Shown here: in pieces, positions 44,340 through 60,142 of the stretch
Layout: each line of letters starts with the position of its first letter
Position numbering within the stretch: the stretch's first letter is position 1
Virus record (IMG/VR): IMGVR_UViG_3300025138_000015
Length of the DNA: 64,000 bases
From: a virus
Strand: one strand, 5' to 3'
Notes under the pieces: generated by a model
Seen by the model: only the letters and a program-made list of their open reading frames with translations
Told to the model about the DNA's origin: nothing
Databases searched by the model: none
Position numbers and translations under genes: made by a program

Positions 44340-44921
44340 TTAAGACTGTCCTAAATCCACATGTCCTGTTGCCATTGCAGCTGCTGGTATTTGTCTTCTA
44401 TAATGTTCGAAGTCTTTAAGTAATTCTTCTTTAGTGCTAAAGATTTCATCACGGATTTGAAAGTAAACATTGTGAGTATTATCAATATACTCTAAAACTC
44501 TTCTAGCATTTCCTCTTGCTGGATGGTTGGAACCTTCTCTGCCGGCAATTAGAACCATTTGCAAATCACGGAATCCATATAATTGAGCTACCTCTTCATG
44601 TTGTTCCCTAACAACAAAATTAAGTTTTTCAGCATATTGTGATTGAAGATTTATATCTTCTGGTGCTTCAGAGTTTGAAATATATTGTTCACACAATTCT
44701 TTCTCCATATCATTTAAAGCTACCTGTTCCTGGTCTTCGAATCTCTTTCCAGGAATCCATTCCATAATTTTCATTTCAATATCATCATAGACGACAACAT
44801 CAAATTCAAAACCTAATGCAGGTTTATCAACATTCTCGAATGTGTATTCAAGTCCGTTTGGTTTTCTTATATAAAGGTTCTTGTTTTCACAAAATACCAG
44901 TGCGTTCATTTGTTGATTCAT
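44340..44921 (-). CDS. Hypothetical protein resembling tail-fibre assembly chaperones
   Basis: C-terminal AQLYGFRDL...GSNHPARGNARRVLEY helical motif like those in small fibre-associated proteins. Confidence 0.45.
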   Translation of the reverse strand: MNQQMNALVFCENKNLYIRKPNGLEYTFENVDKPALGFEFDVVVYDDIEMKIMEWIPGKRFEDQEQVALNDMEKELCEQYISNSEAPEDINLQSQYAEKLNFVVREQHEEVAQLYGFRDLQMVLIAGREGSNHPARGNARRVLEYIDNTHNVYFQIRDEIFSTKEELLKDFEHYRRQIPAAAMATGHVDLGQS

Positions 44922-44924
44922 AAT

Positions 44925-46605: not shown

Positions 46606-47388
46606 TTATGAAGAGACTGGAGATGCTGGCCAAGTTTGTGCTAAACTACCATCCCAACGAGCAACTGGTGTTTGACCTTGTGTTCCATATGTGAATGGAC
46701 TTCTGTTCTGATAAGTGAACGGAGTCTGACCTTGTCTTGCATATGTTCCAGGTTGTCTATTCTGATAAGTGAACGGAGTCTGACCTTGTCTTGAATATGT
46801 AGTAGGATTCTGATTAGAATATGTGAAAGGAGTTTGTCCTTGTCTTGCATATGTTCCAGGTTGCCTATTCTGATATGTTCCAGGTTGTCTTGCATTCGCA
46901 ATGTAAGGTTGCTGACCATTTACAGGATTCTGATAGATAGCAGGTTGTCTTGCATTCGCAATATAAGGTTGTTGACCATTTACAGGATTTCTGTAAGTAA
47001 ATGGACTTCTAGCATTCGCAATATATGGTTGCTGAGCATTTACAGGATTTCTGTAAGTAAATGGTTGTCTCGCATTGGCAATGTAAGGTTGTTGGGCAGA
47101 AACAGGGTTTCTGTATCCAGCAGGATACCTAGCATTGTAAGTAAACGGTTGCTGAGCATTACTAGGTGACTGAGCATTCGCAGGATACCTAGCATTATAA
47201 GTGAAAGGTGTTCTTGCATTACTAGGTGACTGTGCATTTGCAGGATATCTTGCATTATAAGTGAAAGGTGTTCTTGCATTATAAGTGAAAGGTGTTCTTG
47301 CACTATAAGTAAATGGGTTTCGACCACTTGCTATAAAAGGCTGCCTTGCATTTCCTATTGCAGGTGCATAATAGAATCCAATTGCCAT
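46606..47388 (-). CDS. Q/N/P/Y/R-rich repeat protein B1
   Basis: TPFTYNAR, QPYIANAR, QPGTYARQGQ units; GAGGAG SD. Confidence 0.8.
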   Translation of the reverse strand: MAIGFYYAPAIGNARQPFIASGRNPFTYSARTPFTYNARTPFTYNARYPANAQSPSNARTPFTYNARYPANAQSPSNAQQPFTYNARYPAGYRNPVSAQQPYIANARQPFTYRNPVNAQQPYIANARSPFTYRNPVNGQQPYIANARQPAIYQNPVNGQQPYIANARQPGTYQNRQPGTYARQGQTPFTYSNQNPTTYSRQGQTPFTYQNRQPGTYARQGQTPFTYQNRSPFTYGTQGQTPVARWDGSLAQTWPASPVSS

Positions 47389-47415
47389 GTTATTTAACTC
47401 CTCTTAATATATACA

Positions 47416-48363
47416 TTATCTCGCCTCGAAGTTTGGCATGAAGCTATTGAAGCCGCCACCGTCACCGCCGCCGCCGAACGGTTGGTAATATGGATATGGT
47501 GCCAGATATAAGAATGGATATGTAAACGGATTCTGAGCATTACCTGAGAATGGTTGTTGTCCATTCGCAATGTACGGTTGTCTTGCATTCGCAATGTACG
47601 GTTGTCTTGCATTCGCAATATAAGGCACACGATATGTAAATGGATTTCTGTATGTAAATGGTTGTCTAGCATTAGCAATATAAGGAACACGATATGTAAA
47701 CGGATTCCTATATGTAAATGGACTTCTAGCATTTGCAATATAAGGCACCTGATAACCTACAGGATTTCTGTATGTAAATGGAGACCTTGCTTGATATGTA
47801 AATGGACTCTGACCGCTTACAGGATTTCTATATGTAAATGGACTTCTATTAGCATATGTAAATGGTTGCTGAGCATTTACAGGATTTCTGTATGTAAACG
47901 GAGACCTATTACTATATGTAAATGGATTTTGACTACTAGACGGATTTCTATATGTGAATGGTTGTCTATTCTGATATGTAAACGGTGTTTGACTATTCGC
48001 AATATACGGAGTCTGACTGTTCGCTATATAAGGATAAGGTTGTTGTGCATTCGCAATATAGGGTTGACCACCATTAGCAATATACGGATACGGTTGTTGT
48101 GCATTCGCAATATATGGGGTCTGACTGTTTGCAATGTATGGGTAAGGTTGTTGTGCATTCGCAATGTATGGTTGTTGACCATTTGCAATATACGGATAGG
48201 GTGCTTGAACTATTGCCTGACCTGATGCATTATTCCAACCTGATGGAGTTTTTACATAAATCTGGTCAACATCTTTCCAAGTTGTTGAACTTGTCTTAAC
48301 CCATGCCCCTCTGGTTGAATTCCATCCAGCTGGGGTTTTAACCTTTTGATTACCTGTTACCAT
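47416..48363 (-). CDS. Q/N/P/Y/R-rich repeat protein A1 with N-terminal VKT..GW fibre-type motifs
   Basis: QPY(PY)IANAQ and SPFTYRNP units; Gly-rich end; AAGGTG SD. Confidence 0.8.
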   Translation of the reverse strand: MVTGNQKVKTPAGWNSTRGAWVKTSSTTWKDVDQIYVKTPSGWNNASGQAIVQAPYPYIANGQQPYIANAQQPYPYIANSQTPYIANAQQPYPYIANGGQPYIANAQQPYPYIANSQTPYIANSQTPFTYQNRQPFTYRNPSSSQNPFTYSNRSPFTYRNPVNAQQPFTYANRSPFTYRNPVSGQSPFTYQARSPFTYRNPVGYQVPYIANARSPFTYRNPFTYRVPYIANARQPFTYRNPFTYRVPYIANARQPYIANARQPYIANGQQPFSGNAQNPFTYPFLYLAPYPYYQPFGGGGDGGGFNSFMPNFEAR

Positions 48364-48381
48364 TTATTTCACCTTACTCGA

Positions 48382-50445
48382 TTAAGAGTAGTAAATCCAT
48401 AAGTCACCAACTGCACCATCTGAACCAGAAGGAGTTGAAGTTGACTGATATATATTTCTTGCTGTACCGCCACTATTTGTGGCATTCGTTATTGTTATTG
48501 CACCTGATGCTACTGTACCTAATGATACATTTGAACCACTCTCATATTTAGTATTCAATGCAGTTTGTAATCCGTCAACATTTGCAATTGTATGATTATG
48601 TGAATCATCAGCAACTGTTGCTGTTATTGATATGTTTGCACTTCCATTAAAACTTGCAGAACCCGATAGGTCTCCACCAAGTGATATTGTTCTTGCTGTC
48701 TCTAAGACTGTTGCTGAACCAGCATTTCCTGAAACTGTTCCAGTGACATTACCAGTTAGATTACCTTCGAATGTTGATGCAACAAAAGTTTCTGAACCTA
48801 CTGTCCATTTGTCATTTGTTTCATCCCAAACAAGAGTCTTAGCTGCAGAACCACCTCTAGTGACACTTATTCCTGAATCTTGTGTTGGTGAACCTGAAGT
48901 GAAGTCTGAGTTCAATGCAATAATGTTATCTGCAAGATTGATTGTTTCTGAATTAACTGTTGTAGTTGTTCCTGATACTGTTAAGTTACCTGAAACGGTT
49001 AGTGAATCACTAACTGCAACAACACCTGTTCCGTTTGCACTCAATGTTAGGTTAGTATCTGTACTTCTGGATTCGATTGAATCTACATCAATTGCGTTTG
49101 AGAATGATATTGCATTTCCGTCTGATGATGATACATTCTTACCTGCAGTAATTTGTACCGCACCTTTTAATTGAATTGCACCAGTTCCAGTAGGATTAAG
49201 TTCTACATCACCTGAACCACTTGTTTGAACTGATACATTTTGGTTTGCATCAGCAGAAACAGTAATTGTACCTGAATTATCAGATACTACTTGTTGTCCG
49301 TTAACATATAAAGACCCAGGTCCAACATAGATATCTCTCCATTGTTTCGAAGAAGAACCTAAGTCGTATGTGACATCGGCATTCGGTATGATATGACCTG
49401 ATAAATTACCACCACCTAGGAATGATTGAACTTGTGAGTCACCATAATCGTTAGAAAGTGTTAATGTACCCGCTGCATCGTCATATGTAGAAGTGATGTT
49501 TGTTCCACCAACTACTAAACCATTTACGATATCTTCTATTTCTTCTTCTGTTTTACCTGAAGATGCAATTGTTAAAGTTCCCGCTGCGTCATCATATGTT
49601 GTTGATATGTTTGTTCCTGCAACTAATAATGCATTAACTCTGTCGTCAACTCTTTCGTTTGTAAAGTAGAGGTTTGTATTTTCTGTTAGGTTTGCAGTTG
49701 TTGAACTAGACTCATCTAGTAATTTTTTCCATGCACCAGCATGAGCAAAATAACCTGCTCCAGTTCCGTGAACATGAGCAAACATACCATGGTATGTACT
49801 TGCACTAGGTAAGTCACTTTCTGCAGAGTATACATTTGAGTACATCATCTTACCTGTTGTAGTAATATTGAATGCTTGTGCATCTAAGTTACCACCAAGT
49901 TGTGGTGTTGTATCTTCAACTACATTATTGATTGAAACTGCTTCTGCTCTTGCATCTGTAAAGTAAAGGTTAGATGAACCTTCATTGACATCGTCTGTAT
50001 TACCTGAAAGTTCTGATAATGCGTCTTTACTTGCTACTTGTGAATCAACATATGCTTTAATAGACTGCTGTGATGCAGCGTGAGTTGCACTGCCTGAGGA
50101 CATATCATCTTCGTCTTTAAGGTCGATTGCAATGTCATTTGCATTTACAGTCATACCTGTTCCAGCACCGACTGCTAATGTTGCATCACCGGATGATGCA
50201 TCACCAGTAAGACCAGCACCTGCAATGATACCTGTGATATCACCTTGTTGTCCTGATACTGTTAATGTTCCATTGGCATCATCATATGTTAATGTGATTC
50301 CTGTTCCTGCTGTTAATAGAGAATTAACTCTATCGTCAATTGATTCTACAATTGCTGTACCTGTTAAAGCACCAGCACTAGTTATAACCTCTACTCCGCC
50401 TACAGATAGACCATTCTTAATATTAAAGTTCTTTTCACCTGCCAT
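48382..50445 (-). CDS. Tail fibre protein
   Basis: Three DDRVN...TYDDA.GTLT repeats, YDLGSSSKQWRDIY, C-terminal GDLWI. Confidence 0.8.
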   Translation of the reverse strand: MAGEKNFNIKNGLSVGGVEVITSAGALTGTAIVESIDDRVNSLLTAGTGITLTYDDANGTLTVSGQQGDITGIIAGAGLTGDASSGDATLAVGAGTGMTVNANDIAIDLKDEDDMSSGSATHAASQQSIKAYVDSQVASKDALSELSGNTDDVNEGSSNLYFTDARAEAVSINNVVEDTTPQLGGNLDAQAFNITTTGKMMYSNVYSAESDLPSASTYHGMFAHVHGTGAGYFAHAGAWKKLLDESSSTTANLTENTNLYFTNERVDDRVNALLVAGTNISTTYDDAAGTLTIASSGKTEEEIEDIVNGLVVGGTNITSTYDDAAGTLTLSNDYGDSQVQSFLGGGNLSGHIIPNADVTYDLGSSSKQWRDIYVGPGSLYVNGQQVVSDNSGTITVSADANQNVSVQTSGSGDVELNPTGTGAIQLKGAVQITAGKNVSSSDGNAISFSNAIDVDSIESRSTDTNLTLSANGTGVVAVSDSLTVSGNLTVSGTTTTVNSETINLADNIIALNSDFTSGSPTQDSGISVTRGGSAAKTLVWDETNDKWTVGSETFVASTFEGNLTGNVTGTVSGNAGSATVLETARTISLGGDLSGSASFNGSANISITATVADDSHNHTIANVDGLQTALNTKYESGSNVSLGTVASGAITITNATNSGGTARNIYQSTSTPSGSDGAVGDLWIYYS

Positions 50446-50705
50446 TAGAATGACCCTCCGTTAACACCTGGTAAACTGAGTTCACCATTCGATGAGTTAT
50501 AACTTAGATTTGTTTCGCCTGATGCAAGTGAAATAGCTGTTCTAGCTCTTGCATTAGTAAAGTATTGATTCGTTGAACCTTCTGAAAGATTATCCGTATC
50601 TAATTCTGAAATCGCTGATGCGACAAGTTTTCCAGATGATGAAATAATTTCAGTGGTACCGACGGTAATCCCATACTCTACTACAAATGTGTTTTGTGTT
50701 GCCAT
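50445..50705 (-). CDS. Small fibre-associated virion protein
   Basis: EGSTNQYFTNARA shared with adjacent fibre; NGGSF end; late promoter 50745-50752. Confidence 0.65.
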   Translation of the reverse strand: MATQNTFVVEYGITVGTTEIISSSGKLVASAISELDTDNLSEGSTNQYFTNARARTAISLASGETNLSYNSSNGELSLPGVNGGSF

Positions 50706-50808
50706 ATTCGTTTGTCCTAGTCTAAGAATGTATTATTATACAGATATTTATAAGAAGTGAGTCCTCTCGGCACATACTTTTTTTAGATATCTACAATTTA
50801 TTTTTAGT

Positions 50809-51105
50809 CTATCCTGATTGATTTGCTTCGTTCCATGCTTTCTTAGCATTCTTTACTGTTGTTGTCCATACTGCTGTTGCTATGCCTTGAACTTCTGCGC
50901 TTTCACTTGATACATCTGTATCAGTATGTGTCCAAGTATTGTCCTCGTTCTTTGCAGAGGATACGCAATCTAATATGTTTCTATGAAAAGACCTATTTAT
51001 CTCTACACCATCTTCTTTGATAATTGTAGCAGTACGAATTTGTATATTTTTATATTCTCCGACAATTTCTATTTTGTCTTCTATTAATTCTTTTGTTAAT
51101 GCCAT
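50809..51105 (-). CDS. Small protein typically following marine phage fibre genes
   Basis: DKIEIVG..K.IQIR.AT...DG.E..RSFHR. Confidence 0.65.
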   Translation of the reverse strand: MALTKELIEDKIEIVGEYKNIQIRTATIIKEDGVEINRSFHRNILDCVSSAKNEDNTWTHTDTDVSSESAEVQGIATAVWTTTVKNAKKAWNEANQSG

Positions 51106-51148
51106 TTTATTTTTCCTTCTCCGTGCCTATCTCCGATAGACATAATTG

Positions 51149-52831
51149 TTATGTTGTTGTATAATGTCCATGTATGTTTAGTTCAATTGATGTAGAGTCC
51201 ATTGTATTATAAGTCCAATACGCTGTAGTTCCGCTGTTCAAGTAGACTCCTTGTAGACTAGTGCCATTTGTTCTAAAATGTGCTTTACCAATAGCTAATC
51301 CACCTAAATTTACACAATCTCCACCTATCGTTATAATTGCTCTTTGATTCGAATCACTTGCATCTAAAGATGTAAAGGGTAATCCACTAATATTCCAGTT
51401 TGAGCCAGGTAATGAAGCTAATGTTACAGCTATTTTTGCGTGTATATGACATATATTACCAATCTTTGTATATATACCGTACATTGTTGATGAGTTTGTT
51501 GTTACATTCTGAAGAACAGGAGTCCAAGTGCCTTCTTCGTAATCGTCAAGTGCATTAGCTGCTGCTGTATCTCCATTAAATGTAATACCACCACTTGTAA
51601 GGATTCTCATTTTTTCTGAATTATTTACAAAGAACTGCATATAGTTAGTATTGTGCTGATAGCTTATTCTTCCATGAGCAGTCGTACCATCTGAATGATT
51701 AAAAGCTAAATTGCCTTGATGTGTTGAACCTGATTGAATAGTAATACCATCATTTGCATCTCCATCACCTACTACTAATTTTTGGCCAAAAGCATATCCT
51801 GTTTGAGATGTTTGCCCTATAAGTACATCTCCATCTGCAAGAATACGCATTCTTTCTGTATTTCCACCAGCAAAGAACAGTAAATCAGCTTTATTTAAAG
51901 CTGTTCCATACCCTGCTATTCCTGCACCTTCTGTAGAAGTACCTGCAGTAAAATTAATTTTTGCACCATCTCCTACTGTAGTATTAGCATTTTTAAGACG
52001 AAGTCCAACTATAGAACCAGCACCATTTGATTCAACATGAAGTTTTGCAGTTGGTGATGCAGTGCCGATGCCAACTTCTGCAGAGTTGTTCACATGAATA
52101 ACATTTGTATCATCTTCTGATTGAATGATTGTAGTCGAACCACTTGTGACAATTCCGTCTGCACTTCCAGTTTTTACCCAAGTGTTGTTGTTAGTTGTTG
52201 CATTAGTACAAACATATACATCACCAGTGTCCTCTTCTATCCATATAGCACCTGCATATGGTGGATTGGTAGTTGCATTTGGTGTCGAACTTGATATAGT
52301 ACAATCTGATAATGAGTCTAAAGTTGCACTACCGAATGATAATGTACCACTTCCGTTTGTTTTAATTACTTGACCACTTGTACCATCTGATGTTGGGAAA
52401 ACAATCGAAGCACCTGTGATACTATTAGTTGCAGTGATAGTTGTTGCAGTTAAATCTCCTACGAGTATATCTGCAAGTGCATATCCTGTTCCTGTTATAT
52501 TAACAGTCGAACCAGGTTCTACTTCAAGACCATCAAATAATTTCCATGTGGAATCTGTTGCATCTCTGAATAGACCTGTAAATTCTGTAGCACCACTATC
52601 TGATAATCCGTCATCATAATTACCATAGAACCCAATGTCTAGTGTATCTGAACTTGTATTACCGTTTGCAAGTTCTAACATTGAATCAGCTACTGAAGTT
52701 ATTGAAGAATTAACTGTTACCGATGTACCGTTAACTGTTAAATTACCTGTAATGGTTGCATTACCATCAACTTGCAAATTACTTGCTGATTCTAATCCTA
52801 GGTCTGCATAAAATTGTGATTTTGTTGCCAT
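51149..52831 (-). CDS. Tail fibre protein
   Basis: VGIGTASPTAKLHV, ERMRI repeats, ALDDYEEGTWTP, YTKIGN; late promoter 52854-52861. Confidence 0.85.
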   Translation of the reverse strand: MATKSQFYADLGLESASNLQVDGNATITGNLTVNGTSVTVNSSITSVADSMLELANGNTSSDTLDIGFYGNYDDGLSDSGATEFTGLFRDATDSTWKLFDGLEVEPGSTVNITGTGYALADILVGDLTATTITATNSITGASIVFPTSDGTSGQVIKTNGSGTLSFGSATLDSLSDCTISSSTPNATTNPPYAGAIWIEEDTGDVYVCTNATTNNNTWVKTGSADGIVTSGSTTIIQSEDDTNVIHVNNSAEVGIGTASPTAKLHVESNGAGSIVGLRLKNANTTVGDGAKINFTAGTSTEGAGIAGYGTALNKADLLFFAGGNTERMRILADGDVLIGQTSQTGYAFGQKLVVGDGDANDGITIQSGSTHQGNLAFNHSDGTTAHGRISYQHNTNYMQFFVNNSEKMRILTSGGITFNGDTAAANALDDYEEGTWTPVLQNVTTNSSTMYGIYTKIGNICHIHAKIAVTLASLPGSNWNISGLPFTSLDASDSNQRAIITIGGDCVNLGGLAIGKAHFRTNGTSLQGVYLNSGTTAYWTYNTMDSTSIELNIHGHYTTT

Positions 52832-52880
52832 AAAAGAATCTCTTGTGTTATACTATTTATAACATTTGGGAAGTGGGAAT

Positions 52881-52909
52881 AAAAAAAAGGGGAACCGAAG
52901 TTCCCCTTT
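52881..52909 (-). terminator. Rho-independent terminator with UUCG loop
   Basis: AAAGGGGAAC-TTCG-GTTCCCCTTTTTTTT. Confidence 0.92.
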
Positions 52910-52929
52910 CCGTATAATATAAAGAAGTC

Positions 52930-53340
52930 TTACGCTGAAACTAATACTCTATGAATATTAATTACTGTAGAACTGCTTGACGCTGGAGTTATCCTTAATC
53001 TTGCATCTGTTCCAGAAATATCTGAATCAAATGATGCCAAATTGGCAGATTTAAGTGTACCATACTGTGTCATCGTCACATTACTTCCGTCATGTACCAA
53101 TACTATCTCTGTGGAATGGAAATCCGAACCACTTGACATTGCTACAATGTATCTCGCTGCTCTATAAGAAGCATGAGCAAAGGTATCTAAATTTACCTCT
53201 GTAGTTGCAGTTGTTGTCAAAGAACTTGAAGTCCTATGTTTAGTATCTAGTTCTTTAGAAGTAGTGATAACATCAGCAGATGAATCATAAGAGAAGACTC
53301 TTATTAACTCTGCGATTTTAAATGCATTTGTTTTAGCCAT
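52930..53340 (-). CDS. Virion structural protein
   Basis: YRAARY...EIVLVHDG...QYG domain, also present at the C-terminus of 53351-54178. Confidence 0.7.
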   Translation of the reverse strand: MAKTNAFKIAELIRVFSYDSSADVITTSKELDTKHRTSSSLTTTATTEVNLDTFAHASYRAARYIVAMSSGSDFHSTEIVLVHDGSNVTMTQYGTLKSANLASFDSDISGTDARLRITPASSSSTVINIHRVLVSA

Positions 53341-53350
53341 TTTCTACTCC

Positions 53351-54178
53351 TTAACTATGTCTAATTTGGAAAGTATCCACTGTTGTGTTAGTGTTTGCAG
53401 GTGTAATGAGAAGTCTCATATTACCTGAGTTAACATCTGAACTCAAAGTGAAAAGTGAAGATGATGAAAAGACATCACCGTATTGTACAAAATATGCACT
53501 AGTACCATCATTTATCAATAGAACCTCAGCTGCGTGAGTTCCTGCTGATGCGTGAGTAGCATTAATTACATATTTAACCGCTTTATTCGCGACTGCGTTA
53601 GATGATAAGACCTGATTAGCAGTAGTTGCTGTCAATGCAGTAGCAGTAAAGAAACCTTCTACAAGGTTACTTGCCGCTGTGATTGCAACAACTTGAACAA
53701 CATCACCAGATAAGCCATTCTCAGCAAGTGTTATAACAGTCGAAGAGGTTGTAGTATAATCTGCACCACCTCCAACTAATTTAACACCGTTTATGAATAC
53801 CTGTTCTGAACCAGCTTGATAAACGAGAGAGTTTGAACTATCATCGTTTCCAGTGATTGATGTTGTAGTGCTTGATAATGTATATGTGAATATAACAATA
53901 CCACTACTAGGTTGGTCTGCCCAATCTAAAGCTCCTGAACCGTTAGTCTTTAAGACCTGATTCGAAGAACCATCATTAGTCGGGAATGAGAATGCGTCGT
54001 TAACAGTAAGAGTTGCTGGATTTGACCCAACTTCTACAACTGAAGCAGAACCATCGTTCTTTTCAGTATAGAATCTACCATGATAAGTGTTGACTGCTAA
54101 TTCACCTAGTGTTAAATCACTAGTTGCAGGCACACTGTTCTGAGTAGAACTTCTTTTAAATTGAATTACTGTTGCCAT
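53351..54178 (-). CDS. Fibre/virion structural protein
   Basis: IQFKRS...L..GELA N-domain; VFINGVKL; QYG domain. Confidence 0.7.
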   Translation of the reverse strand: MATVIQFKRSSTQNSVPATSDLTLGELAVNTYHGRFYTEKNDGSASVVEVGSNPATLTVNDAFSFPTNDGSSNQVLKTNGSGALDWADQPSSGIVIFTYTLSSTTTSITGNDDSSNSLVYQAGSEQVFINGVKLVGGGADYTTTSSTVITLAENGLSGDVVQVVAITAASNLVEGFFTATALTATTANQVLSSNAVANKAVKYVINATHASAGTHAAEVLLINDGTSAYFVQYGDVFSSSSLFTLSSDVNSGNMRLLITPANTNTTVDTFQIRHS

Positions 54179-54206
54179 CTGTATTCTCCGTTAGAATTAA
54201 GCGTTA

Positions 54207-55805
54207 TTAAAATGTTCCGCCATCTATAGCTGTGACTGTAACCGCACCACTAGATACTGTAAAGTTTGCAGAAGCAAAACTTGCAATACCTTTTGCTGAT
54301 GTAGTTGCGTCATTGATAGCTACATCTCCTGAACTTACAGTGAAGTAAGAACCTGAGAAACTTGCGATACCTTTATTGGAATCAGTTGCATCTTCTGCTG
54401 AAAGAGTGATAGCACCTGCACCATTACTGATGTCAAGTCCTTCTCCTGCAGTTAAAGTAGCAGCGTCAAATACTCCTGATGAAGTATCTCCAATTAATAA
54501 CTGACCATCTGTCGGAGCTGAACCTGCATAAGAGTCAATACTTCCACTTAGAGATGCGTTAGCAACTGTTAAGTTTCCGAATTTACCTGCCATAGCAGTT
54601 CCAGAGAATACTGATGAACTATCTGTTGCACTTGAAAGAGCAACAAAAGAACCGTCTGTATCATCCATACCAAAGAAACCAATTTTAGCACCACCGGAGT
54701 TGTACTTAAATTTGATACCTCTGTCTAGGTTATCGTCTGAACTATCTGAACCAAGTTCAAATACAGGGTCAGCGATATTTACTGTTGTCGAGTTTACTGT
54801 AGTTGTAGTACCATTAACTGTCAAGTTACCTGTGACTGTTAAGTTACCAGATGTTGTTAAAGTTGCAGTTGTAATATCGTCTGATATTAAGTTTCCTGAA
54901 ACTGTTAAGTTATTTGCAATTGTGACATCGTTAGGAAGACCAACTGTTATAGTTTGTCCACTTGCTGAAGTCTCAACTTCGTTTGCTGTACCTGTGACTG
55001 TTAATGATTGAGTGTCTAAATCAACTGTACCTGTTCCTGAAGAACCTGCAATGTTTAAGTCGTCATCTCTATCTAAACTATCTACATAGTCTTTAACAGC
55101 AGCTGAAGTAGGTATAGTAGTGTCGTTATCGTTTGAACCGATACCTTCTGCTTGTGTTACCCATAAAGCGTCTGCTAATTTATCTAAAGTCACTGCATCA
55201 TCAGCTATCATTGCTGTTTCAACTGCTGAGTTAGCAATTGTTAAAGCACCGTTTGCAGCTAATGTTGCATCTCCTGATACGCTAACATTGTCAAATGAAT
55301 CTGAACCGTCATGCACAAGAATTTGTGCTGAACTTGGTGAAGAAATATCTGAATCCGTTGCACCTGCTAATGTAGATGTTGTTGATAAGAATGATAAGTT
55401 TCCACTACCGTCAGTTGCAATTACTTGGTTAGCAGAACCGTCTGCTGTAGGTAAAGTAAAGGTTGTTGATGCGGCTAATGTATCGGCAGATTTTAATGCA
55501 ACGAAGTTCGTTCCATTATCACTGTCTTCCATTAGTTGAACACTAGCACCTGCTGTTGAACCATTACCAACTTTAAAGTTGGATGGTGTAGCAGAAGAAC
55601 CAGAAAGAATATCAGTATAATACTTACCACCAATCGCTTGGATTAGGGGTGTAGAGTTATCTGAGTCTACTGATTCAATGAATAGTTTCGCACCAGCACC
55701 TGAATTAGACCTATCCTGTACATACGCTAATTCACCTTCCGACAAATCTGAGATTGCTGGAGCTGAGACGCCTGTACTTCTTTTAATCTGAATTACTGTT
55801 GCCAT
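54207..55805 (-). CDS. Tail fibre protein
   Basis: IQIKRS...GELA N-domain, GNLTV repeats, DAT...KGIASF repeats, DGGTF end. Confidence 0.78.
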   Translation of the reverse strand: MATVIQIKRSTGVSAPAISDLSEGELAYVQDRSNSGAGAKLFIESVDSDNSTPLIQAIGGKYYTDILSGSSATPSNFKVGNGSTAGASVQLMEDSDNGTNFVALKSADTLAASTTFTLPTADGSANQVIATDGSGNLSFLSTTSTLAGATDSDISSPSSAQILVHDGSDSFDNVSVSGDATLAANGALTIANSAVETAMIADDAVTLDKLADALWVTQAEGIGSNDNDTTIPTSAAVKDYVDSLDRDDDLNIAGSSGTGTVDLDTQSLTVTGTANEVETSASGQTITVGLPNDVTIANNLTVSGNLISDDITTATLTTSGNLTVTGNLTVNGTTTTVNSTTVNIADPVFELGSDSSDDNLDRGIKFKYNSGGAKIGFFGMDDTDGSFVALSSATDSSSVFSGTAMAGKFGNLTVANASLSGSIDSYAGSAPTDGQLLIGDTSSGVFDAATLTAGEGLDISNGAGAITLSAEDATDSNKGIASFSGSYFTVSSGDVAINDATTSAKGIASFASANFTVSSGAVTVTAIDGGTF

Positions 55806-55841
55806 TTTTATTTTCCTATAAAAATTAAATTGTTATTGTTT

Positions 55842-55929
55842 GACCTGTCACTGTCGAGGTCGTGATTACATAATATATAAAAATTCTATCCTCTCACTAT
55901 GAGGGTCGATACCTTCACTGATTGGTATC
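55842..55929 (-). promoter_or_regulatory. Candidate structured 5' leader with three AGUGA-loop hairpins
   Basis: GATACC-aatcAGTGAa-GGTATC, CCTC-atAGTGA-GAGG, GACCT-cgacAGTGAc-AGGTC downstream of late promoter 55949-55956. Confidence 0.6.
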
Positions 55930-55959
55930 CTTGATTTGTTTGTATAAGTATTTATACAA

Positions 55960-56202
55960 TTAAAATGTTCCGCCGTCTATTGCAGTGGTTGTTGTCCATT
56001 TATCTGTAGATGCATCGTATGAAAGAAGTCCATCATCCGTTTCTGTTGCATTCACATCTGCAAGTTCATTGATTGACTTTGCAGATAAGTCTGCACTTCC
56101 ACCTGAACCAACTTGAACTTGTTTGGCACGAATGTTTCCTGTACCTCCGACTCTTCCTGAGATACCTGCAACTCTTGAAATTGTTCCTTTAATGTTCGAC
56201 AT
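55960..56202 (-). CDS. Small virion protein
   Basis: LADVN...DGLLSYD...W, DGGTF end. Confidence 0.65.
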   Translation of the reverse strand: MSNIKGTISRVAGISGRVGGTGNIRAKQVQVGSGGSADLSAKSINELADVNATETDDGLLSYDASTDKWTTTTAIDGGTF

Positions 56203-56204
56203 AA

Positions 56205-56540
56205 TTAACTCCGACTTACTCCTGGTGTCACTACTGCTTGTCCTTCAACGACTCTTGTGGTGACTCCACCAGGACTTGTAATATTTAAATCATATACATA
56301 TCGACCTGCTTCTAAAGAAGTGGTTTGAGTATCAGTTAAACTTAATGTGACTTGTCCATTCGATGCTGATATAGTACAATTGAATGCAACTGAGGTACTA
56401 GAAGAACTGTATGTTTTTCTTACCTGTGCAAGTGCAGAATATGAAGTCAAATCAAGGATATCTCCCGCTGCATCAGTCACATCTACTGTAATTGTGAAGT
56501 CGGTTCCTTGGTCAATATATAAATTTGCGATAATAGCCAT
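56205..56540 (-). CDS. Virion structural protein (BppU-like Ig fold)
   Basis: NLYIDQGTDF, DLTSY, GRYVYD, RVVEG; late promoter 56546-56553. Confidence 0.7.
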   Translation of the reverse strand: MAIIANLYIDQGTDFTITVDVTDAAGDILDLTSYSALAQVRKTYSSSSTSVAFNCTISASNGQVTLSLTDTQTTSLEAGRYVYDLNITSPGGVTTRVVEGQAVVTPGVSRS

Positions 56541-56566
56541 ATAACTATTTATACGAAAAAAGAACT

Positions 56567-57283
56567 CTAGGAATTAGGTTCTGATAATTGTGCTGTGGGT
56601 TGAGTTTGATGTATCTTTTCTGCAGTTCCAGAATTATTTACATATACTTCTGATGCTTTTCTTAGAGTGCCATTATCATTGACATATACTTGTTTAACTT
56701 TTGCCAAAGGACCTATTGTTCTTGTACTTGGAAAAGGATTTTGATATGTGAATGGACTTCTGTTCTGATAAGTAAATGGTTGTCTATTCTGATATGTTCC
56801 AGGTTGCCTTGCATTCGCAATATAAGGTTGTTGATAACTTGTAGGATTTCTATATGTACCAGGTTGTCTATTACTATATGTAAATGGTGTTTGACCTTGT
56901 CTATCATAGGTGAAAGGTGTTCTTGCCTGATAAGTGAAAGGAGTTTGACCTTGTCTTGCATATGTGAATGGTTGTCTATTTTCATATGTGAAAGGTGTTC
57001 GACCTGTGGCATTTGCAATGTATGTACTAGGTTGTCTATTATTATATGTTCCAGGTTGTCTTGCATCCGCAATATATGGGTGTTGATATATCGCAGGTTG
57101 TCTATTATTATATTCTGCAGGTTGTCGTGCATTCGCAATATAAGGTTGTTGATATGTAAATGGATGCCTGTATGTAAAAGGTTGCCTTGCACTTGCCTGA
57201 TACGGAGTTTGAGCATTACTAGGTTGTCTTGCATTAGCAATATAAGGTTGTTGAACTATAACTGGCTGTTGTCCTGTTGGCAT
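56567..57283 (-). CDS. Q/N/P/Y/R-rich repeat protein B2 with C-terminal VYVN..G motifs
   Basis: QPYIANAR, TPFTY, QPGTY units; VKQVYVNDNG...EVYVNNSG. Confidence 0.8.
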   Translation of the reverse strand: MPTGQQPVIVQQPYIANARQPSNAQTPYQASARQPFTYRHPFTYQQPYIANARQPAEYNNRQPAIYQHPYIADARQPGTYNNRQPSTYIANATGRTPFTYENRQPFTYARQGQTPFTYQARTPFTYDRQGQTPFTYSNRQPGTYRNPTSYQQPYIANARQPGTYQNRQPFTYQNRSPFTYQNPFPSTRTIGPLAKVKQVYVNDNGTLRKASEVYVNNSGTAEKIHQTQPTAQLSEPNS

Positions 57284-58683
57284 TATCTAAACCCCGCCTG
57301 TGTACCATAAGTAGACCTTAGATATATCTGACTTATATGACCTTGAACAGCACCACTGTTGCTACAAATAAAATGAGTATAGTAAGTTGTTTGACCAGTC
57401 TTACTAGCTTTAATAGTAAATATAACACCTTGTGCCTGTGTCATTCCAGTTTGTTGATTGGTATTTGACGCTGATGCTGCCATCCACATAAATTGTTTAG
57501 AACTCGATGATGAACCATTCCAAATACTATAATAAGTACCGGCAATTCTACCAGCTATTCCTGTTGCCGGTGTGACTGTATCAGAAGTACCTCCACTAGC
57601 AGTTTGACTCTGAACAGTATACTTAACATCAATATTCCATGAACTATCAATTACATTATTATTATTAAGTTCTGTTAAAGGCAAATATATGTAATAAGGA
57701 TTGTAACCATAATAATCTGCATATGCTGTGGAATTTCCACCTGAATATTCATAATATACTTTATTTTGTGTTGAACTATAACCAATAATAAACTGAGCAA
57801 AACATTGACCATGTGAATAACTAAAATTCTGAATTTGAGTAGTTTGCCATGCATAATTTGGTAATCCACTGGCCAATGGATTAGTTGGGTAAAGAGGATT
57901 ACTCGGTGAGAATGCAGAGTTTGGGCTCGTTGTCATATGTGGAGAATTAGAACCCCACCATTCGTTTGATGACATACCTACAGTTGTATTGCTAACAGTT
58001 GAAAAAGGAGCATTTGTAGGACTTAAATCTGTTGTTGTTTCAATATTTGCGGTTGCTGAACTTCCCCCACCCCAAACATCGTAAGTCACAGGAGTCCGAC
58101 TTGATACTGCCGTACTATGATTATATGTAAATGGATGTTGATATATCGCAGGTTGTCTATTATCATATGTAAACGGATTCTGACCATTACTAGGTTGTTG
58201 TGCATCAGGTGTTGCTCTTGCCTGATATGTAAATGGTGTTTGACTATTTGCAATATAAGGAGTTTGAGAATTACTTGGTTGTCTGTTTTGATATGTAAAC
58301 GGTGTTTGACTATTTGCTATATAAGGTGTCTGTGCGTTAGCAGTATATGTAAATGGGTATGGTTGTTGTGCTGATGCCTGATATGGATTTTGTCCATTTG
58401 CAATATACGGATAAGGTTGTTGTGCGTTTGCTATATAAGGTTGTCTTGCATTCGCAATATATGGATATGCCTGTTGAGCATTCGCAATGTAAGGTGTCTG
58501 ATTACTTGTAGGATTCCTGTATAGGGCAGGATTTCTATTACTATATGTAAATGGTGATTGACTATTTGCTATGTACGGTTGTTGTGCATTCGCAATGTAT
58601 GGTTGTTGTGCATTCGAAGGTTGTCTATCATTGAAAGACTGTTGAATGGTTGTACCAGTATTTACATAAATCTTGTCTGACAT
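57283..58683 (-). CDS. Repeat protein A2: N-terminal repeats plus non-repetitive C-terminal domain
   Basis: KIYVNTG start, QPYIANAQ/TPFTY units for about 200 aa, then an S/T/Y-rich globular-looking region. Confidence 0.8.
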   Translation of the reverse strand: MSDKIYVNTGTTIQQSFNDRQPSNAQQPYIANAQQPYIANSQSPFTYSNRNPALYRNPTSNQTPYIANAQQAYPYIANARQPYIANAQQPYPYIANGQNPYQASAQQPYPFTYTANAQTPYIANSQTPFTYQNRQPSNSQTPYIANSQTPFTYQARATPDAQQPSNGQNPFTYDNRQPAIYQHPFTYNHSTAVSSRTPVTYDVWGGGSSATANIETTTDLSPTNAPFSTVSNTTVGMSSNEWWGSNSPHMTTSPNSAFSPSNPLYPTNPLASGLPNYAWQTTQIQNFSYSHGQCFAQFIIGYSSTQNKVYYEYSGGNSTAYADYYGYNPYYIYLPLTELNNNNVIDSSWNIDVKYTVQSQTASGGTSDTVTPATGIAGRIAGTYYSIWNGSSSSSKQFMWMAASASNTNQQTGMTQAQGVIFTIKASKTGQTTYYTHFICSNSGAVQGHISQIYLRSTYGTQAGFR

Positions 58684-58687
58684 GATT

Positions 58688-60142
58688 CTATATCACAAAC
58701 CATAAGTGACCTGATGCTGTCGAACCAACTCCAGATGGAACTGTTCCTGTTATCGTTTTATCCATCACTACATTATCACCATCTATTTTAACACCTTCTG
58801 CTGTATTAACACTGATATTTATATCACCGTCCAAAGGATTTCCTGTGTTAGTATTATATGATTTGGCTAAACCTGCTTCGGCATTAATGATTGCATTAAC
58901 TCTATCATCTGTAAAATAGAAACTATTCGAACCTTCTGATACTGAGTCTGTTGTATTTGTAGGATTAACAGGTTCCCAATAATTATTACCAGCATCCCAT
59001 GCTAAAACTTGTCCAGCAGTTGGAGTAGTTGAATAATTAACATCTGATAGTGCTGAAACACCGTGATTAGTTATACTTGAAATTGTTCCTGTGACATTAC
59101 CAGTCACATTTCCGATTAAATCACCAGTCACATTGCCTGTCACTGCACCATTTAATGTTGTTGCAGTAATAGTTGTTGCATGTAAACTCTGATATCTTTT
59201 TGATGAAGAACCTAATGTTCTAGTATTATCTGAATTAGGCATTATATTTGTGTCTACAACACCATTGATTGATACTGTATCACTTGCATCACTTCCTAAG
59301 TCTACATTTCCTGTAAAACTTGCAGTTGTTCCTGTAATACCACCTGATGACAAAGTACCTACTGTTGCAGTTCCAGTGACTCCTAAGTCACCACCAATTG
59401 TTGCATCATCTGAGACTACTAAGTCATCTGATGATGATAAATGTTCTGCTGAAACTGTTCCTGAGAATGTTCCATTTACTGCACTTGTTAATGAACCACC
59501 TGATAATGATGCAGTTCCGTCTGTGACTGTTGGTGCAGTTAATACTTTACCTGTTGCAAGTGTTATGTCGTCTTCTGCATAAGTTCTACCTGCAAGTTGT
59601 AGATTAAATCCACCTTGTAGAGTTGTGGTAACAGATGAATTATCTCCTTGAAGTATAATACCATTTGAGTTAGTATTATAGATTGTGTTCTGTAATGTTT
59701 CTGTAAAGAATGAAAGTATTGCACTTGATGTTGCAGTTCCTTCAAAAGAACCTGTGTATGCATAGATTTGTATTAAATCATTAGCACTTGCCGCCGATAT
59801 CAATTGTATGTTATAATAGAAAGCACCTGCAAGTCCACCAACTTGCCAATCACTTTGTTCTTCTAATAAGACACCGTTTTTAAATACTTGAACTCTATTT
59901 CCTTTGTATTTAAGAATGTTCCCATTTGCATCTGCACCTGTGAATGTTTGTTGTCCTGCAGTTGCAGTGTATCTATATTTTCCAAAGTAGAATGCTTTGT
60001 CTTCAACTGCGTTAACAGCATCGACTAGATTTTCACCTAATGCAGGTCTTAATCCTGAAACCTCACCAACATCTACGGCAAGTTCATTATACTTCAGTCT
60101 AAATTCATCTATTGTGCTATAATTGTCTACTGTTTTAGCCAT
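58688..60142 (-). CDS. Tail fibre/baseplate-associated protein
   Basis: ATAGQQTF, VFKNGVLL, GNVTG repeats, LSDV...GQVLAWD, C-terminal GHLWF. Confidence 0.78.
   Translation of the reverse strand: MAKTVDNYSTIDEFRLKYNELAVDVGEVSGLRPALGENLVDAVNAVEDKAFYFGKYRYTATAGQQTFTGADANGNILKYKGNRVQVFKNGVLLEEQSDWQVGGLAGAFYYNIQLISAASANDLIQIYAYTGSFEGTATSSAILSFFTETLQNTIYNTNSNGIILQGDNSSVTTTLQGGFNLQLAGRTYAEDDITLATGKVLTAPTVTDGTASLSGGSLTSAVNGTFSGTVSAEHLSSSDDLVVSDDATIGGDLGVTGTATVGTLSSGGITGTTASFTGNVDLGSDASDTVSINGVVDTNIMPNSDNTRTLGSSSKRYQSLHATTITATTLNGAVTGNVTGDLIGNVTGNVTGTISSITNHGVSALSDVNYSTTPTAGQVLAWDAGNNYWEPVNPTNTTDSVSEGSNSFYFTDDRVNAIINAEAGLAKSYNTNTGNPLDGDINISVNTAEGVKIDGDNVVMDKTITGTVPSGVGSTASGHLWFVI

What the first reader, a model, noticed from the sequence alone, without database searches (positions are those of the whole stretch)
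46606..60142. Duplicated three-gene architecture suggesting a split docking motif
Seen: both repeat loci read [fibre ending P..G...G(D/H)LW] then [repeat protein A] then [repeat protein B]: 50445 to 46606 and 60142 to 56567. The repeat proteins carry YV(K/N)..G motifs at a terminus (IYVKTPSGW, KIYVNTG, QVYVNDNG). In many phage fibres GDLW and YV...GW appear consecutively in one chain. Inference: the motif is split between genes so that repeat proteins plug onto fibre tips as exchangeable adhesins; A2 adds a candidate receptor-binding domain.
Basis: partly seen in the sequence, partly recalled or inferred. Interest (0 to 1): 0.7.

Follow-up and report, generated by a model that had tools for sequence, protein, structure and literature searches.

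The report
Split-motif phage fibre with mirrored partners
An uncultured marine T4-like phage carries two copies of a three-gene tail-fibre kit: each fibre protein stops halfway through a small, widespread beta-sheet module, and the next two genes encode repeat proteins that match each other unit for unit when one is read backwards. This points to a three-part fibre, not yet described, that is assembled by piecing folds together across chains.

Summary
Both loci read fibre, repeat protein A, repeat protein B. In IMG/VR relatives the order and the terminal motifs are strictly kept: an F1-type end is followed by an A1-type start in 36 of 36 cases, and an F2-type end by an A2-type start in 20 of 20.

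The split-motif idea is partly supported.
- About 244 proteins hold a contiguous ~45-aa module, which AlphaFold2 folds confidently.
- Both fibres end inside its strand 1 to strand 2 turn.
- Fibre 2's end joined to A2's start aligns to the module without gaps (E 5e-6) and scores best of 72 gene junctions in the window.
- A1's start fits only weakly.
- A single-chain AF2 fusion did not fold the junction.
- No fused natural form was found.

New here for this window: A and B are mirror partners.
- All prolines sit on one residue parity and all Tyr/Phe on the other.
- Repeat lengths of A and B track each other (r = 1.00 and 0.88).
- A1 read forwards equals B1 read backwards over 30 units (224 residues), always with opposite unit types.

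A's N-terminus and B's C-terminus therefore lie at the fibre end, and A's variable C-domain lies at the far tip.

This scan had already found the mirror pairing on other genomes. The link to the fibre through a truncated module is what this report adds. Physical docking is untested.

The parts
48382..50445 (-). Fibre F1 (687 aa), a tail-fibre shaft protein
   Evidence: ORF. PHROG tail-fibre families phrog_9729, phrog_7389 and phrog_11011. tblastn hits to tail fibres of many phages.
48385..48456 (-). F1 C-terminal 24 aa (NIYQSTSTPSGSDGAVGDLWIYYS): first half (strand 0, loop, strand 1) of the contiguous beta-module, ending in the strand 1 to strand 2 turn
   Evidence: hhalign to module columns 4-24, probability 89%, E 2.5e-6. 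Conserved in 23 distinct relatives. Codon position 3 identity 0.62 against 0.86 for positions 1+2.
48202..48363 (-). A1 N-terminal adaptor (residues 1-54) with three hVKT...W units (QKVKTPAGW, AWVKTSSTTW, QIYVKTPSGW)
   Evidence: Strongly conserved in 22 distinct relatives. Always follows an F1-type end. In-register but weak match to the module's second half (E about 0.08).
47530..48201 (-). A1 repeat region (residues 55-278): 30 proline-started units with lengths (10,8)x4, 8, (6,6,8)x6, 8,8,8
   Evidence: All 38 prolines sit on one residue parity and all 49 Tyr/Phe on the other.
47416..48363 (-). Repeat protein A1 (315 aa). In this phage it ends in a short Gly-rich tail with no globular domain
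   Evidence: ORF with its own SD and two upstream stops. No Pfam or PHROG hit.
46669..47340 (-). B1 repeat region (residues 17-240). Read C to N, it is the exact length mirror of the A1 repeat region, with the opposite unit type at every position
   Evidence: 30 of 30 unit pairs have equal length. YIA-type faces xTY-type in 13/13 and 4/4 pairs, and same type never faces same type. Antiparallel proline overlap z = 8.4.
46609..46668 (-). B1 conserved C-terminal tail (PVARWDGSLAQTWPASPVSS). The mirror alignment places it next to A1's N-terminal adaptor
   Evidence: Conserved in 19 distinct relatives. Position inferred.
46606..47388 (-). Repeat protein B1 (260 aa)
   Evidence: ORF with its own SD. 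0.4% acidic residues.
58688..60142 (-). Fibre F2 (484 aa), the first gene downstream of the VrlC-like baseplate protein
   Evidence: ORF. N-terminus MAKTVDN.. conserved in 46 distinct relatives. VrlC context.
58691..58756 (-). F2 C-terminal 22 aa (..TGTVPSGVGSTASGHLWFVI): first half of the beta-module, ending in the strand 1 to strand 2 turn
   Evidence: hhalign E 7e-5 alone, and 5e-6 gapless when joined to A2's start. Conserved in 18 distinct relatives.
58621..58683 (-). A2 N-terminal unit (MSDKIYVNTGTT..), equivalent to strand 2 of the module
   Evidence: Aligns to module columns 28-38 in exact register. Best of 73 N-termini when appended to the F2 end (14.3 bits against 5.5 for the next). 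Changes YVN to YVK together with both B2 units in the L133/L144 lineage.
58084..58620 (-). A2 repeat region (about residues 22-200)
   Evidence: 21 proline coincidences with reversed B2, z = 7.3.
57286..58083 (-). A2 C-terminal non-repeat domain (about residues 201-466): a beta-rich domain and candidate receptor-binding tip
   Evidence: 21 homologues, all with A2-like architecture. AF2 of the L004 orthologue gives strands with pLDDT 70-90. Only weak fold matches, to fimbrial adhesins, Z <= 4.1. Replaced by unrelated domains in other lineages.
56735..57280 (-). B2 repeat region (about residues 2-183), the mirror partner of the A2 repeats
56570..56734 (-). B2 conserved C-terminal piece with two YVN..GT units (KQVYVNDNGT, EVYVNNSGT) and ..KIHQ.QPTAQ
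   Evidence: Conserved in 21 distinct relatives. Residues 194-227 match phrog_13729.
52166..52303 (-). Complete, contiguous copy of the module in a paralogous fibre protein (51149-52831, residues 177-222)
   Evidence: Used as the query that found 244 proteins. AF2 pLDDT 93-96.

Best explanation
Each locus encodes one three-component tail fibre in the host-recognition cluster of a marine T4-like phage.

1. The fibre protein. F is assumed to be trimeric, like other phage fibres. It ends after strand 1 of a small four-stranded beta-module. In hundreds of other phage proteins this module lies in one chain between the shaft and the distal domain.

2. The A/B pair. The two downstream, tightly coupled genes encode A and B. 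They zip together antiparallel along their proline-punctuated repeats. Unit lengths are mirrored and unit types are complementary. A is the outward strand and B the return strand.

3. The junction. This arrangement puts A's conserved N-terminus and B's conserved C-terminus at the same end. I infer that this end docks on F by supplying the missing strand(s) of the truncated module, that is, fold completion in trans. The other end displays A's variable C-terminal domain as the receptor-binding tip.

What is shown: the conserved cassette, truncation of the module in F, the in-register match of A2's start, protein-level selection on the termini, and the A/B mirror code.

What is inferred: physical docking, beta-strand geometry, stoichiometry (3:3:3, or a trimer capped by one A.B pair) and receptor binding.
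For: - Cassette order and cognate termini are invariant in relatives.
- The gap between F and A is 1-54 nt, often too short to hold an SD, which fits coupled translation.
- A contiguous module exists in 244 proteins, sometimes in up to 19 tandem copies, and often lies before Gly_rich_2 or Laminin_G_3 domains.
- AF2 gives a confident four-strand fold for the module.
- F1 and F2 ends match only the module's first half.
- F2 end plus A2 start aligns gaplessly to the module, with the same 8-residue W-to-Y spacing. It ranks first of 72 junctions.
- Third codon positions at the termini are 50-62% identical, against 76-90% for positions 1+2.
- Co-variation: YVN changes to YVK in A2's start and in both B2 units, together with an acidic change next to GHLW in F2. 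F1 YY(S/A) goes with A1 GNQ in 9/9 cases, and LYS with G(S/K)Q in 26/27.
- A/B pairing: proline-to-proline spacing is even 3446 times and odd 8 times; the Tyr/Phe offset is odd 4228 times and even 5 times.
- Repeat lengths of A and B correlate: A1/B1 r = 1.00 over 182-540 residues, A2/B2 r = 0.88.
- Mean antiparallel proline overlap is z = 10.7 and 6.0, against about 1.4 for parallel.
- In this window, 30/30 mirrored units have opposite types, and non-cognate pairs score z <= 1.7.
- No DNA inverted repeat explains the mirror.
- A's C-terminal part varies between lineages.
Against: - The single-chain AF2 model of a natural in-frame read-through fusion (L004 F2 end, two-residue linker, A2) left the junction unstructured (pLDDT 31-38) and the repeats at about 25.
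- A1's N-terminus is not significantly similar to the module's second half (E about 0.08). The module HMM prefers A2's start even on the F1 end.
- No natural fused fibre-plus-A chain was found, although those searches are weak.
- A2's start lacks the module's third strand with its Trp.
- In one relative (L117) an F1-type end has no A/B gene next to it.
- No cultured phage carries A or B, so there is no virion proteomics or imaging.
Confidence: 0.55

Rival explanations
1. A and B form the mirror-coded fibre and are attached to F, but not by completing the truncated module. On this reading the resemblance of A2's start to strand 2 is vestigial, left over from an old gene fission, or coincidental. 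Attachment would use another interface, as in the T2/S16 gp38 attachment domain on gp37.
For: - The second-half match is short and weak when taken alone (A2 start E 0.01, A1 start E 0.08).
- The AF2 fusion did not fold the junction.
- Gp38 is reported to attach to gp37 through its own N-terminal attachment domain and electrostatic contacts (PMC12032242).
Against: - The gapless register and identical loop length across the junction.
- The junction ranks first among 72.
- Both fibres are cut at the same point in a turn.
- Strong purifying selection acts on both halves.
Confidence: 0.2
2. A and B are not attached to F. They would form a separate filament, such as whiskers, tail hairs or a secreted or host-surface matrix, that is merely co-expressed with the fibre genes.
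For: - Extreme Q/N/Y/P composition with almost no acidic residues.
- Relatives of this phage group encode curli-secretion genes whose substrate is unknown (PMC7029224).
- L117 has an F1-type end with no A/B next to it.
Against: - Cognate pairing of fibre-end type with A-start type is strict: 56/56 plus 43/46.
- Stop-start distances are only 1-4 nt.
- The termini co-vary.
- The cassette sits directly after the VrlC baseplate gene, where the fibres lie.
Confidence: 0.13
3. A and/or B are assembly chaperones or scaffolds for F, in the manner of Tfa or T4 gp38/gp57, and are not part of the finished fibre.
For: Genes directly downstream of fibre genes are often chaperones (established knowledge of T4, lambda, Mu and P2).
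Against: - They are long (238-740 aa) and length-matched over a three-fold range.
- A carries variable distal domains.
- No similarity to known chaperone families in Pfam or PHROGs.
Confidence: 0.08
4. F and A are made as one polypeptide by programmed read-through or frameshifting, so the motif is not really split.
For: In the window F1, A1 and B1 share one reading frame. Some relatives have F2 and A2 in frame with a single stop between them.
Against: - Two stops separate F1 from A1 and A1 from B1.
- F-to-A gaps are 1, 3, 4, 9, 12, 16, 18 to 54 nt, in all three frames, with TAA, TAG and TGA stops and no conserved slippery site.
- A always keeps its own ATG.
Confidence: 0.02

Closest known systems
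T2/T6/S16-type long tail fibre: gp37 shaft capped by the separately encoded gp38 adhesin (PMC12032242)
   Same: The gene directly downstream of the distal fibre gene encodes the receptor-binding piece. That piece has a conserved N-terminal attachment part and a variable distal part, and it sits on the fibre's C-terminal tip.
   Different: - No sequence or family similarity to gp38.
- Here there are two downstream proteins that pair with each other.
- The stalk is a long octad-type repeat, not a polyglycine sandwich.
- Attachment appears to use a fold that is cut between the two chains, not a self-contained attachment domain.
[quoted passage not shown]
   Same: There are outward and return strands running antiparallel along the fibre axis, with the receptor-binding domain at the turn. 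Here A would be the outward strand plus tip and B the return strand.
   Different: - In gp37 both strands belong to one chain and the needle is short.
- Here they are two gene products.
- The paired region is 170-540 residues long and is held in register by mirrored unit lengths and complementary unit types.
- No homology was detected.
T4 long tail fibre assembled from gp34, gp35, gp36 and gp37 (established knowledge)
   Same: Fibre segments encoded by consecutive genes join end to end through conserved termini.
   Different: The T4 junctions are not known to be halves of a single small domain, and the T4 segments are homotrimers or a monomer, not a mirror-coded hetero-pair.
Donor-strand complementation in chaperone-usher pili (established knowledge; EcpA entry 3qs3 appears among the weak fold hits)
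   Same: Works alike in principle: an incomplete beta fold in one subunit is completed by a strand from the next subunit.
   Different: No homology. The fold is different (an Ig-like pilin against a ~45-aa four-strand module). The mechanism is inferred here, not shown.
Contiguous GHLW...YVCT...W module family, unnamed (244 proteins)
   Same: The F ends are homologous to its first half, and A2's start fits its second strand. In that family too the module sits between a shaft and a distal domain (Gly_rich_2, Laminin_G_3).
   Different: In that family the module lies in one chain. Here the chain ends in the strand 1 to strand 2 turn.

Membership tests
Contiguous GHLW-YVCT beta-module (unnamed, 244 proteins) | First half: P-rich loop followed by G(H/D)LW(I/V) strand 1 | tested here: met
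   hhalign of the F1 end gives probability 89%, E 2.5e-6. The F2 end gives E 7e-5.
Contiguous GHLW-YVCT beta-module (unnamed, 244 proteins) | Second half (G.hYVCT strand 2 and N.W.N.G strand 3) in the same chain | tested here: not met
   Both fibres stop 3-4 residues after the Trp. All 41 distinct relatives do the same.
Contiguous GHLW-YVCT beta-module (unnamed, 244 proteins) | Second half supplied by the next gene product, in register | tested here: inconclusive
   - F2+A2 aligns gaplessly, E 5e-6, and ranks first of 72 junctions.
- A2's start alone gives E 0.01 and A1's start E 0.08.
- The AF2 fusion left the junction at pLDDT 31-38.
gp38-type adhesin on the gp37 tip (T2/S16) | Adhesin gene immediately downstream of the fibre gene, with a conserved N-terminus and a variable distal part | tested here: met
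gp38-type adhesin on the gp37 tip (T2/S16) | Sequence membership: glycine-rich motifs, polyglycine sandwich, gp38 families | tested here: not met
   No Pfam or PHROG family matches A or B, apart from a 34-residue match of B2 to phrog_13729, a family of unknown function. No tblastn match of A1 or A2 to any cultured phage.
gp38-type adhesin on the gp37 tip (T2/S16) | Monomeric adhesin bound to a trimeric tip | not testable with these tools
   No multimer prediction or experiment is available here.
Mirror-coded antiparallel A/B repeat pair (noted earlier by this scan on other genomes) | Unit lengths of B read C to N equal those of A read N to C | tested here: met
   - 30/30 units over 224 residues for A1/B1.
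- 21 proline coincidences for A2/B2, z = 7.3.
- Family-wide mean z = 10.7 and 6.0.
Mirror-coded antiparallel A/B repeat pair (noted earlier by this scan on other genomes) | Facing units are of opposite type | tested here: met
   For A1/B1, YIA faces xTY in 13 pairs, xTY faces YIA in 4, and same type never faces same type. Not tabulated for A2/B2.
Mirror-coded antiparallel A/B repeat pair (noted earlier by this scan on other genomes) | A and B lengths change together across lineages | tested here: met
   r = 1.00 (n = 21, 182-540 residues) and r = 0.88 (n = 16).
Programmed read-through or frameshift fusion | Conserved frame relation and recoding signal at the junction | tested here: not met
   Gaps, frames and stop codons all vary, and two stops occur at some junctions.
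Triple-stranded beta-helix with octapeptide repeats (T4 gp5C type) | Parallel homotrimer built from a regular 8-residue repeat | tested here: inconclusive
   Eight-residue units dominate, but units of 6, 10, 12 and 20 residues are interspersed. The partner relationship is antiparallel and between two different proteins. No structure was obtained: AF2 pLDDT is about 25 for the repeats.

The most novel reading that the evidence does not exclude
The cassette encodes a fibre architecture that has not been described. A trimeric shaft would leave its last small beta-module deliberately incomplete. A two-gene, mirror-coded antiparallel beta-ribbon or needle (A outward, B return) would plug in by completing that module in trans. 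The pairing code of mirrored unit lengths and complementary unit types would fix the register over 170-540 residues (about 60-180 nm if extended). Each junction might carry exactly three hV(K/N) units (three in A1; one in A2 plus two in B2), so that one A.B pair caps one trimer.
Probability: 0.35. Interest if true: 0.85.

Novelty: new variant of a known kind. Interest (0 to 1): 0.74.

Why it matters
Multi-part tail fibres and tip adhesins are known. A junction made by cutting a small autonomous beta-module between two gene products would be a new docking principle for phage receptor-binding proteins, one that can be predicted from sequence. A stalk made of two proteins that encode each other's register in mirror image would also be new.

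The system occurs in well over a hundred uncultured marine T4-like phage contigs, in the host-recognition cluster. It therefore bears on how abundant ocean phages find their hosts.

The conserved half-modules suggest natural plug points for swapping distal domains. The strict proline and aromatic parity and the pairing code give protein designers a natural example of register control in long beta assemblies.

Every part of this can be tested with recombinant proteins, without culturing the phage.

Tried and rejected
- Read-through or frameshift fusion: rejected. Junction sequences and variable gaps and frames argue against it.
- Conserved termini as DNA-level recombination linkers or RNA signals: rejected. 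Third codon positions are much more diverged than positions 1 and 2.
- The mirror as a DNA inverted repeat: rejected. Only one 14-nt imperfect pair was found.
- Natural fused fibre-plus-A chains: none among 158 repeat ORFs in the loci or in two 'longer' protein searches. Both searches are weak.
- Cultured-phage relatives of A and B: none for A1 or A2. B2 gave only Pseudomonas phage hits, which I took to be compositional but did not check. The B2 end alone gave only a marginal Pectobacterium phage hit.
- Own assembly: not held. The nearest record, G001, does not cover the region.
- The module against solved structures: nothing by sequence. Nothing significant by Foldseek; collagen XV/XVIII trimerisation domains and a chitin-binding domain appear only at E > 3.
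- AF2 single-chain fusion of F2 end plus A2: junction and repeats had low confidence, so it is uninformative for docking.
- Fold of the A2-type C-domain: only weak matches (Z <= 4.1, fimbrial adhesins; BFVD uncharacterised phage proteins at E 2.7e-5). The protein-atlas leads all score below 0.85.
- tblastn hits of the F1 C-terminal third to other fibres cover the HxH repeat region, not the GDLW end.
- Literature: no paper holds the repeat word or links GDLW to tail fibres.


Full report
**Context**

The window is a 35% G+C stretch with all genes on the minus strand. The large protein at 60349-63999 is a VrlC-type baseplate protein. Its best named relatives are Methylophilales phage Melnitz (38.6% identity), Pelagibacter phage Mosig and T4-like cyanophages. 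In pelagimyophages the region downstream of VrlC is the hypervariable host-recognition cluster, which holds the tail fibres and glycosyltransferases (PMC7029224). The finding lies exactly there. The window's own assembly is not held and the nearest record does not cover the region. No cultured phage is close at the DNA level.

**Observation**

The six ORFs and the quoted motifs are present.
- F1 matches tail-fibre PHROGs.
- A1, B1, A2 and B2 have no Pfam family. Their only PHROG hit is a 34-residue match of the B2 end to a family of unknown function.
- The genes are separate. TAA..TAA and an SD precede A1 and B1. F2 and A2 are 4 nt apart and out of frame. A2 and B2 overlap by one base.
- The literal P..G...G pattern is slightly off, and B1 lacks a YV motif. 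Otherwise the description is accurate.

**Conservation**

A search of IMG/VR with A2 gave 178 hits, and 71 loci were fetched.
- Among distinct repeat proteins, every F1-type end (..YQSTS.P...DGAVGD[LM]W[IV][YL]Y[SA]) is followed by an A1-type start (M..G.Q.VKTP.GW...WVKT...TWK.V.QIYVKTP.GWNNASGQ), 36/36.
- Every F2-type end (DYE..S.AP..VGST..GHLWFV[IV]) is followed by an A2-type start (MS[DE][EK]IY[VI]NTG), 20/20.
- A1 is always followed by a B with the end RWDG.L.Q.WP.TPVSS (21/21). A2 is always followed by a B with two YVND.GT units and KIHQSVPTAQF (16/16).
- A second scan, seeded with the F2 N-terminus, found 46 distinct F2-type fibres. Of these, 43 end in GHxWFVx and are followed by an A2-like gene.
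- Exceptions. L117 has an F2 N-terminus with an F1-type end and no A/B next to it. L143 and L149 have a long coiled-coil-ended version followed by a different gene.
- The conserved termini are constrained at the protein level. Third codon positions are 50-62% identical, against 76-90% for positions 1+2.
- F-to-A gaps of 1-54 nt, in all frames and with all three stop codons, exclude a conserved recoding event.

**The contiguous module**

The paralogous fibre protein at 51149-52831 has GAIWIEEDTGDVYVCTNATTNNNTWVKTGS in one chain.
- A 75-residue piece around it found 244 proteins at E <= 1e-3 among 1.84 billion representatives. Some have up to 19 tandem copies.
- The consensus is STSDPTATTNPSAVGHLWINKTTGEIYVCTDATTNANVWVNIGEGSG.
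- It includes Pelagibacter phage HTVC104P gp68 and a Helicobacter prophage protein.
- It often precedes Gly_rich_2 or Laminin_G_3 domains, so it sits between shaft and distal domain.
- It has no Pfam model of its own, no sequence match in the PDB and no significant Foldseek match.
- AF2 with a 53-sequence alignment folds it with pLDDT 93-96 into four strands: CTIS, IWIE, DVYVCTN and TWVKTG.

**Is the motif split?**

- Profile-profile comparison shows that the F1 end matches module columns 4-24 (probability 89%, E 2.5e-6) and the F2 end matches columns 12-24 (E 7e-5). Neither goes further, because the chains stop 3-4 residues after the Trp, in the strand 1 to strand 2 turn.
- Joining the F2 ends to their cognate A2 starts extends the alignment, without a gap, to column 38 (E 5e-6, score 29.0). 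F2 alone scores 21.3, and F2 joined to reversed A2 starts scores 22.0.
- The W-to-Y spacing is 8 residues, as in the consensus.
- Against the module HMM, the F2/A2 junction is the best of 72 adjacent-gene junctions in the window (14.3 bits). F1/A1 is second (5.6 bits) and the next is 3.6. A2's start is the best of 73 N-termini on the F2 end.
- For module 1 the second half is weak. A1 residues 2-14 align in the right register (TG..kVkT...W) at only E 0.085. The HMM prefers A2's start even on the F1 end.
- An AF2 model of a natural in-frame fusion left the junction at pLDDT 31-38. The fusion was the L004 F2 end, the TAA stop read as Gly, one further codon, then full A2. The alignment had 7 paired and 28 unpaired rows.

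In sum, truncation of the module in both fibres is solid. Complementation by A is well supported at the sequence level for F2/A2 and only suggested for F1/A1. It has not been shown physically for either.

**Co-variation**

In the divergent L133/L144 lineage, A2's start reads YVK/YIK instead of YVN. Both units in the B2 end also read Y(V/F)K, and the F2 end gains an acidic residue beside GHLW (GKPEGHLW, GKEVGHLW). In module 1, fibre ends ..YY(S/A) go with A1 starts ..GNQ.. (9/9), and ..LYS goes with ..G(S/K)Q.. (26/27). These cases are few and confounded by phylogeny, but they are what a shared interface predicts.

**What A and B are**

- The repeats are proline-started units, mostly 8 residues long: PYIANAQQ, PFTYQNRQ and variants of 2-20 residues. 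They have almost no acidic residues.
- Across the family, consecutive prolines are an even distance apart 3446 times and odd 8 times. Tyr/Phe lie at an odd offset from the preceding proline 4228 times and even 5 times. In A1, all 38 prolines share one parity and all 49 aromatics the other. A period of two over hundreds of residues points to an extended, two-faced beta-type chain. This is an inference.
- The repeat lengths of A and B match. For A1/B1, r = 1.00 over 182-540 residues, with B a median of 8 residues shorter. For A2/B2, r = 0.88.
- The proline spacing of B read backwards coincides with that of A read forwards, for example 45/45 and 40/40 prolines. Mean z is 10.7 and 6.0, while the parallel orientation is at background.
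- In this window, A1 residues 55-278 and B1 residues 240-17 share the unit-length series (10,8)x4, 8, (6,6,8)x6, 8,8,8, that is 30 units and 224 residues. YIA-type units always face xTY-type units and never their own type.
- A2/B2 show 21 coincidences (z = 7.3). The non-cognate pairs A1/B2 and A2/B1 do not (z <= 1.7).
- No DNA inverted repeat underlies the mirror.
- After I had found the parity, length and mirror relations, a look-up showed that this scan had already reported the same mirror pairing for related gene pairs in other genomes. I then confirmed their 'opposite type' rule here.

**Consequences for the model**

- The mirror places A's N-terminus and B's C-terminus at one end. These are exactly the two conserved pieces, and in module 2 both carry the same YVN unit.
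- The junction pieces add up to similar sizes: A1 N-terminus 54 aa plus B1 end about 20 aa, and A2 N-terminus 21 aa plus B2 end about 55 aa.
- By my motif reading (not a statistical test), each module has three hV(K/N) units: three in A1, or one in A2 plus two in B2.
- This count could mean that one A.B pair caps a trimer. A 3:3:3 assembly resembling a very long, two-gene version of the six-stranded antiparallel needle of T4 gp37 (PMC7291167) is equally possible.
- The far end carries A's C-terminal part. It is a beta-rich domain in A2: 21 homologues, pLDDT 70-90 in the orthologue, and only weak fold matches to fimbrial adhesins. It is a short Gly-rich tail in A1 here. In relatives it is one of several unrelated domains of 150-370 residues, including Hint domains.
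- This pattern of a conserved plug, a stalk and a variable tip is the usual signature of a receptor-binding protein. Receptor binding itself is inferred.

**Comparison with known systems**

- Functionally the closest are the gp37-gp38 tip adhesin of T2/S16-type phages (PMC12032242) and the end-to-end T4 fibre segments.
- Mechanistically, the proposed trans-completion of a beta fold resembles donor-strand complementation in pili.
- Membership in any of these families is not supported by sequence.
- I therefore class the finding as a new variant of a known kind, a multi-component tail fibre. It has two features for which I found no description: a junction cut through a small module, and a mirror-coded two-protein stalk.

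**Confidence by step**

| Step | Confidence |
|---|---|
| Cassette and motifs real and conserved | about 1.0 |
| A.B antiparallel pairing | about 0.8 |
| A.B attached to the F C-terminus | about 0.65 |
| Attachment by completing the truncated module | about 0.45 |
| Exactly three units per trimer | about 0.25 |

Noticed in passing
L015:5073-6368, L056:993-2750, L013:8001-9686 (relatives; not in the window): In some lineages the A protein ends in a Hint (intein-like) domain: Vint 32.5 bits and Hint 31.4 bits in L015, Hom_end_hint 37.4 bits in L056, all above Pfam cut-offs. The C-terminal ends read ..VLVHNG.. . This suggests self-cleavage or ligation at the distal end of the stalk.
   Followed up: partly
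window 54207-55805, 55960-56202, 50445-50705: A second recurring terminal motif: three ORFs end in ..(I/V)(D/N)GG(T/S)F. Their downstream genes start MATVIQ(I/F)KRS.. or MAGEKNFNIKNG.. . This may be another conserved end-to-start junction in the same fibre cluster.
   Followed up: no
L117:7001-7900: A chimeric fibre with the F2-type N-terminus and an F1-type C-terminal half-module (..GDGQVGDVWILYS). It is followed directly by the 111-aa MAIIAN.. gene, with no A/B pair. The half-module ends therefore appear to be shuffled between shafts.
   Followed up: partly
window 41907-46559: Directly downstream of B1 lie a glycosyltransferase-8-like fusion protein (Pfam GT8, 23.6 bits, just under the cut-off) and further genes that other first-stage notes read as 2OG-Fe(II) oxygenases. 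The Pro/Tyr/Asn-rich repeats could be their substrates.
   Followed up: no
L021, L023, L045 and others, between A and B: Where the A1-type protein carries a large C-terminal domain, an extra small ORF of 86-104 aa sits between A and B. It may be a chaperone for that domain.
   Followed up: no
window 58684-58690 and L004/L008 7995-8003: The F2 stop and the A2 start are 1-4 nt apart in many relatives, with no room for a separate ribosome-binding site. This suggests termination-reinitiation coupling and fixed expression ratios.
   Followed up: partly
window 56567-57283 against Pseudomonas phages (H31-H37): tblastn of B2 hits 'hypothetical protein' regions of several Pseudomonas aeruginosa phages (44% identity over about 150 aa, E 9e-8). 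This is probably compositional, but I did not examine it.
   Followed up: no
P0008, P0016, P0092 (database proteins): Some proteins carry 16-19 tandem copies of the contiguous GxLW..YVCT..W module, so it also serves as a repeat unit of long fibres or adhesins. It has no Pfam model of its own.
   Followed up: partly
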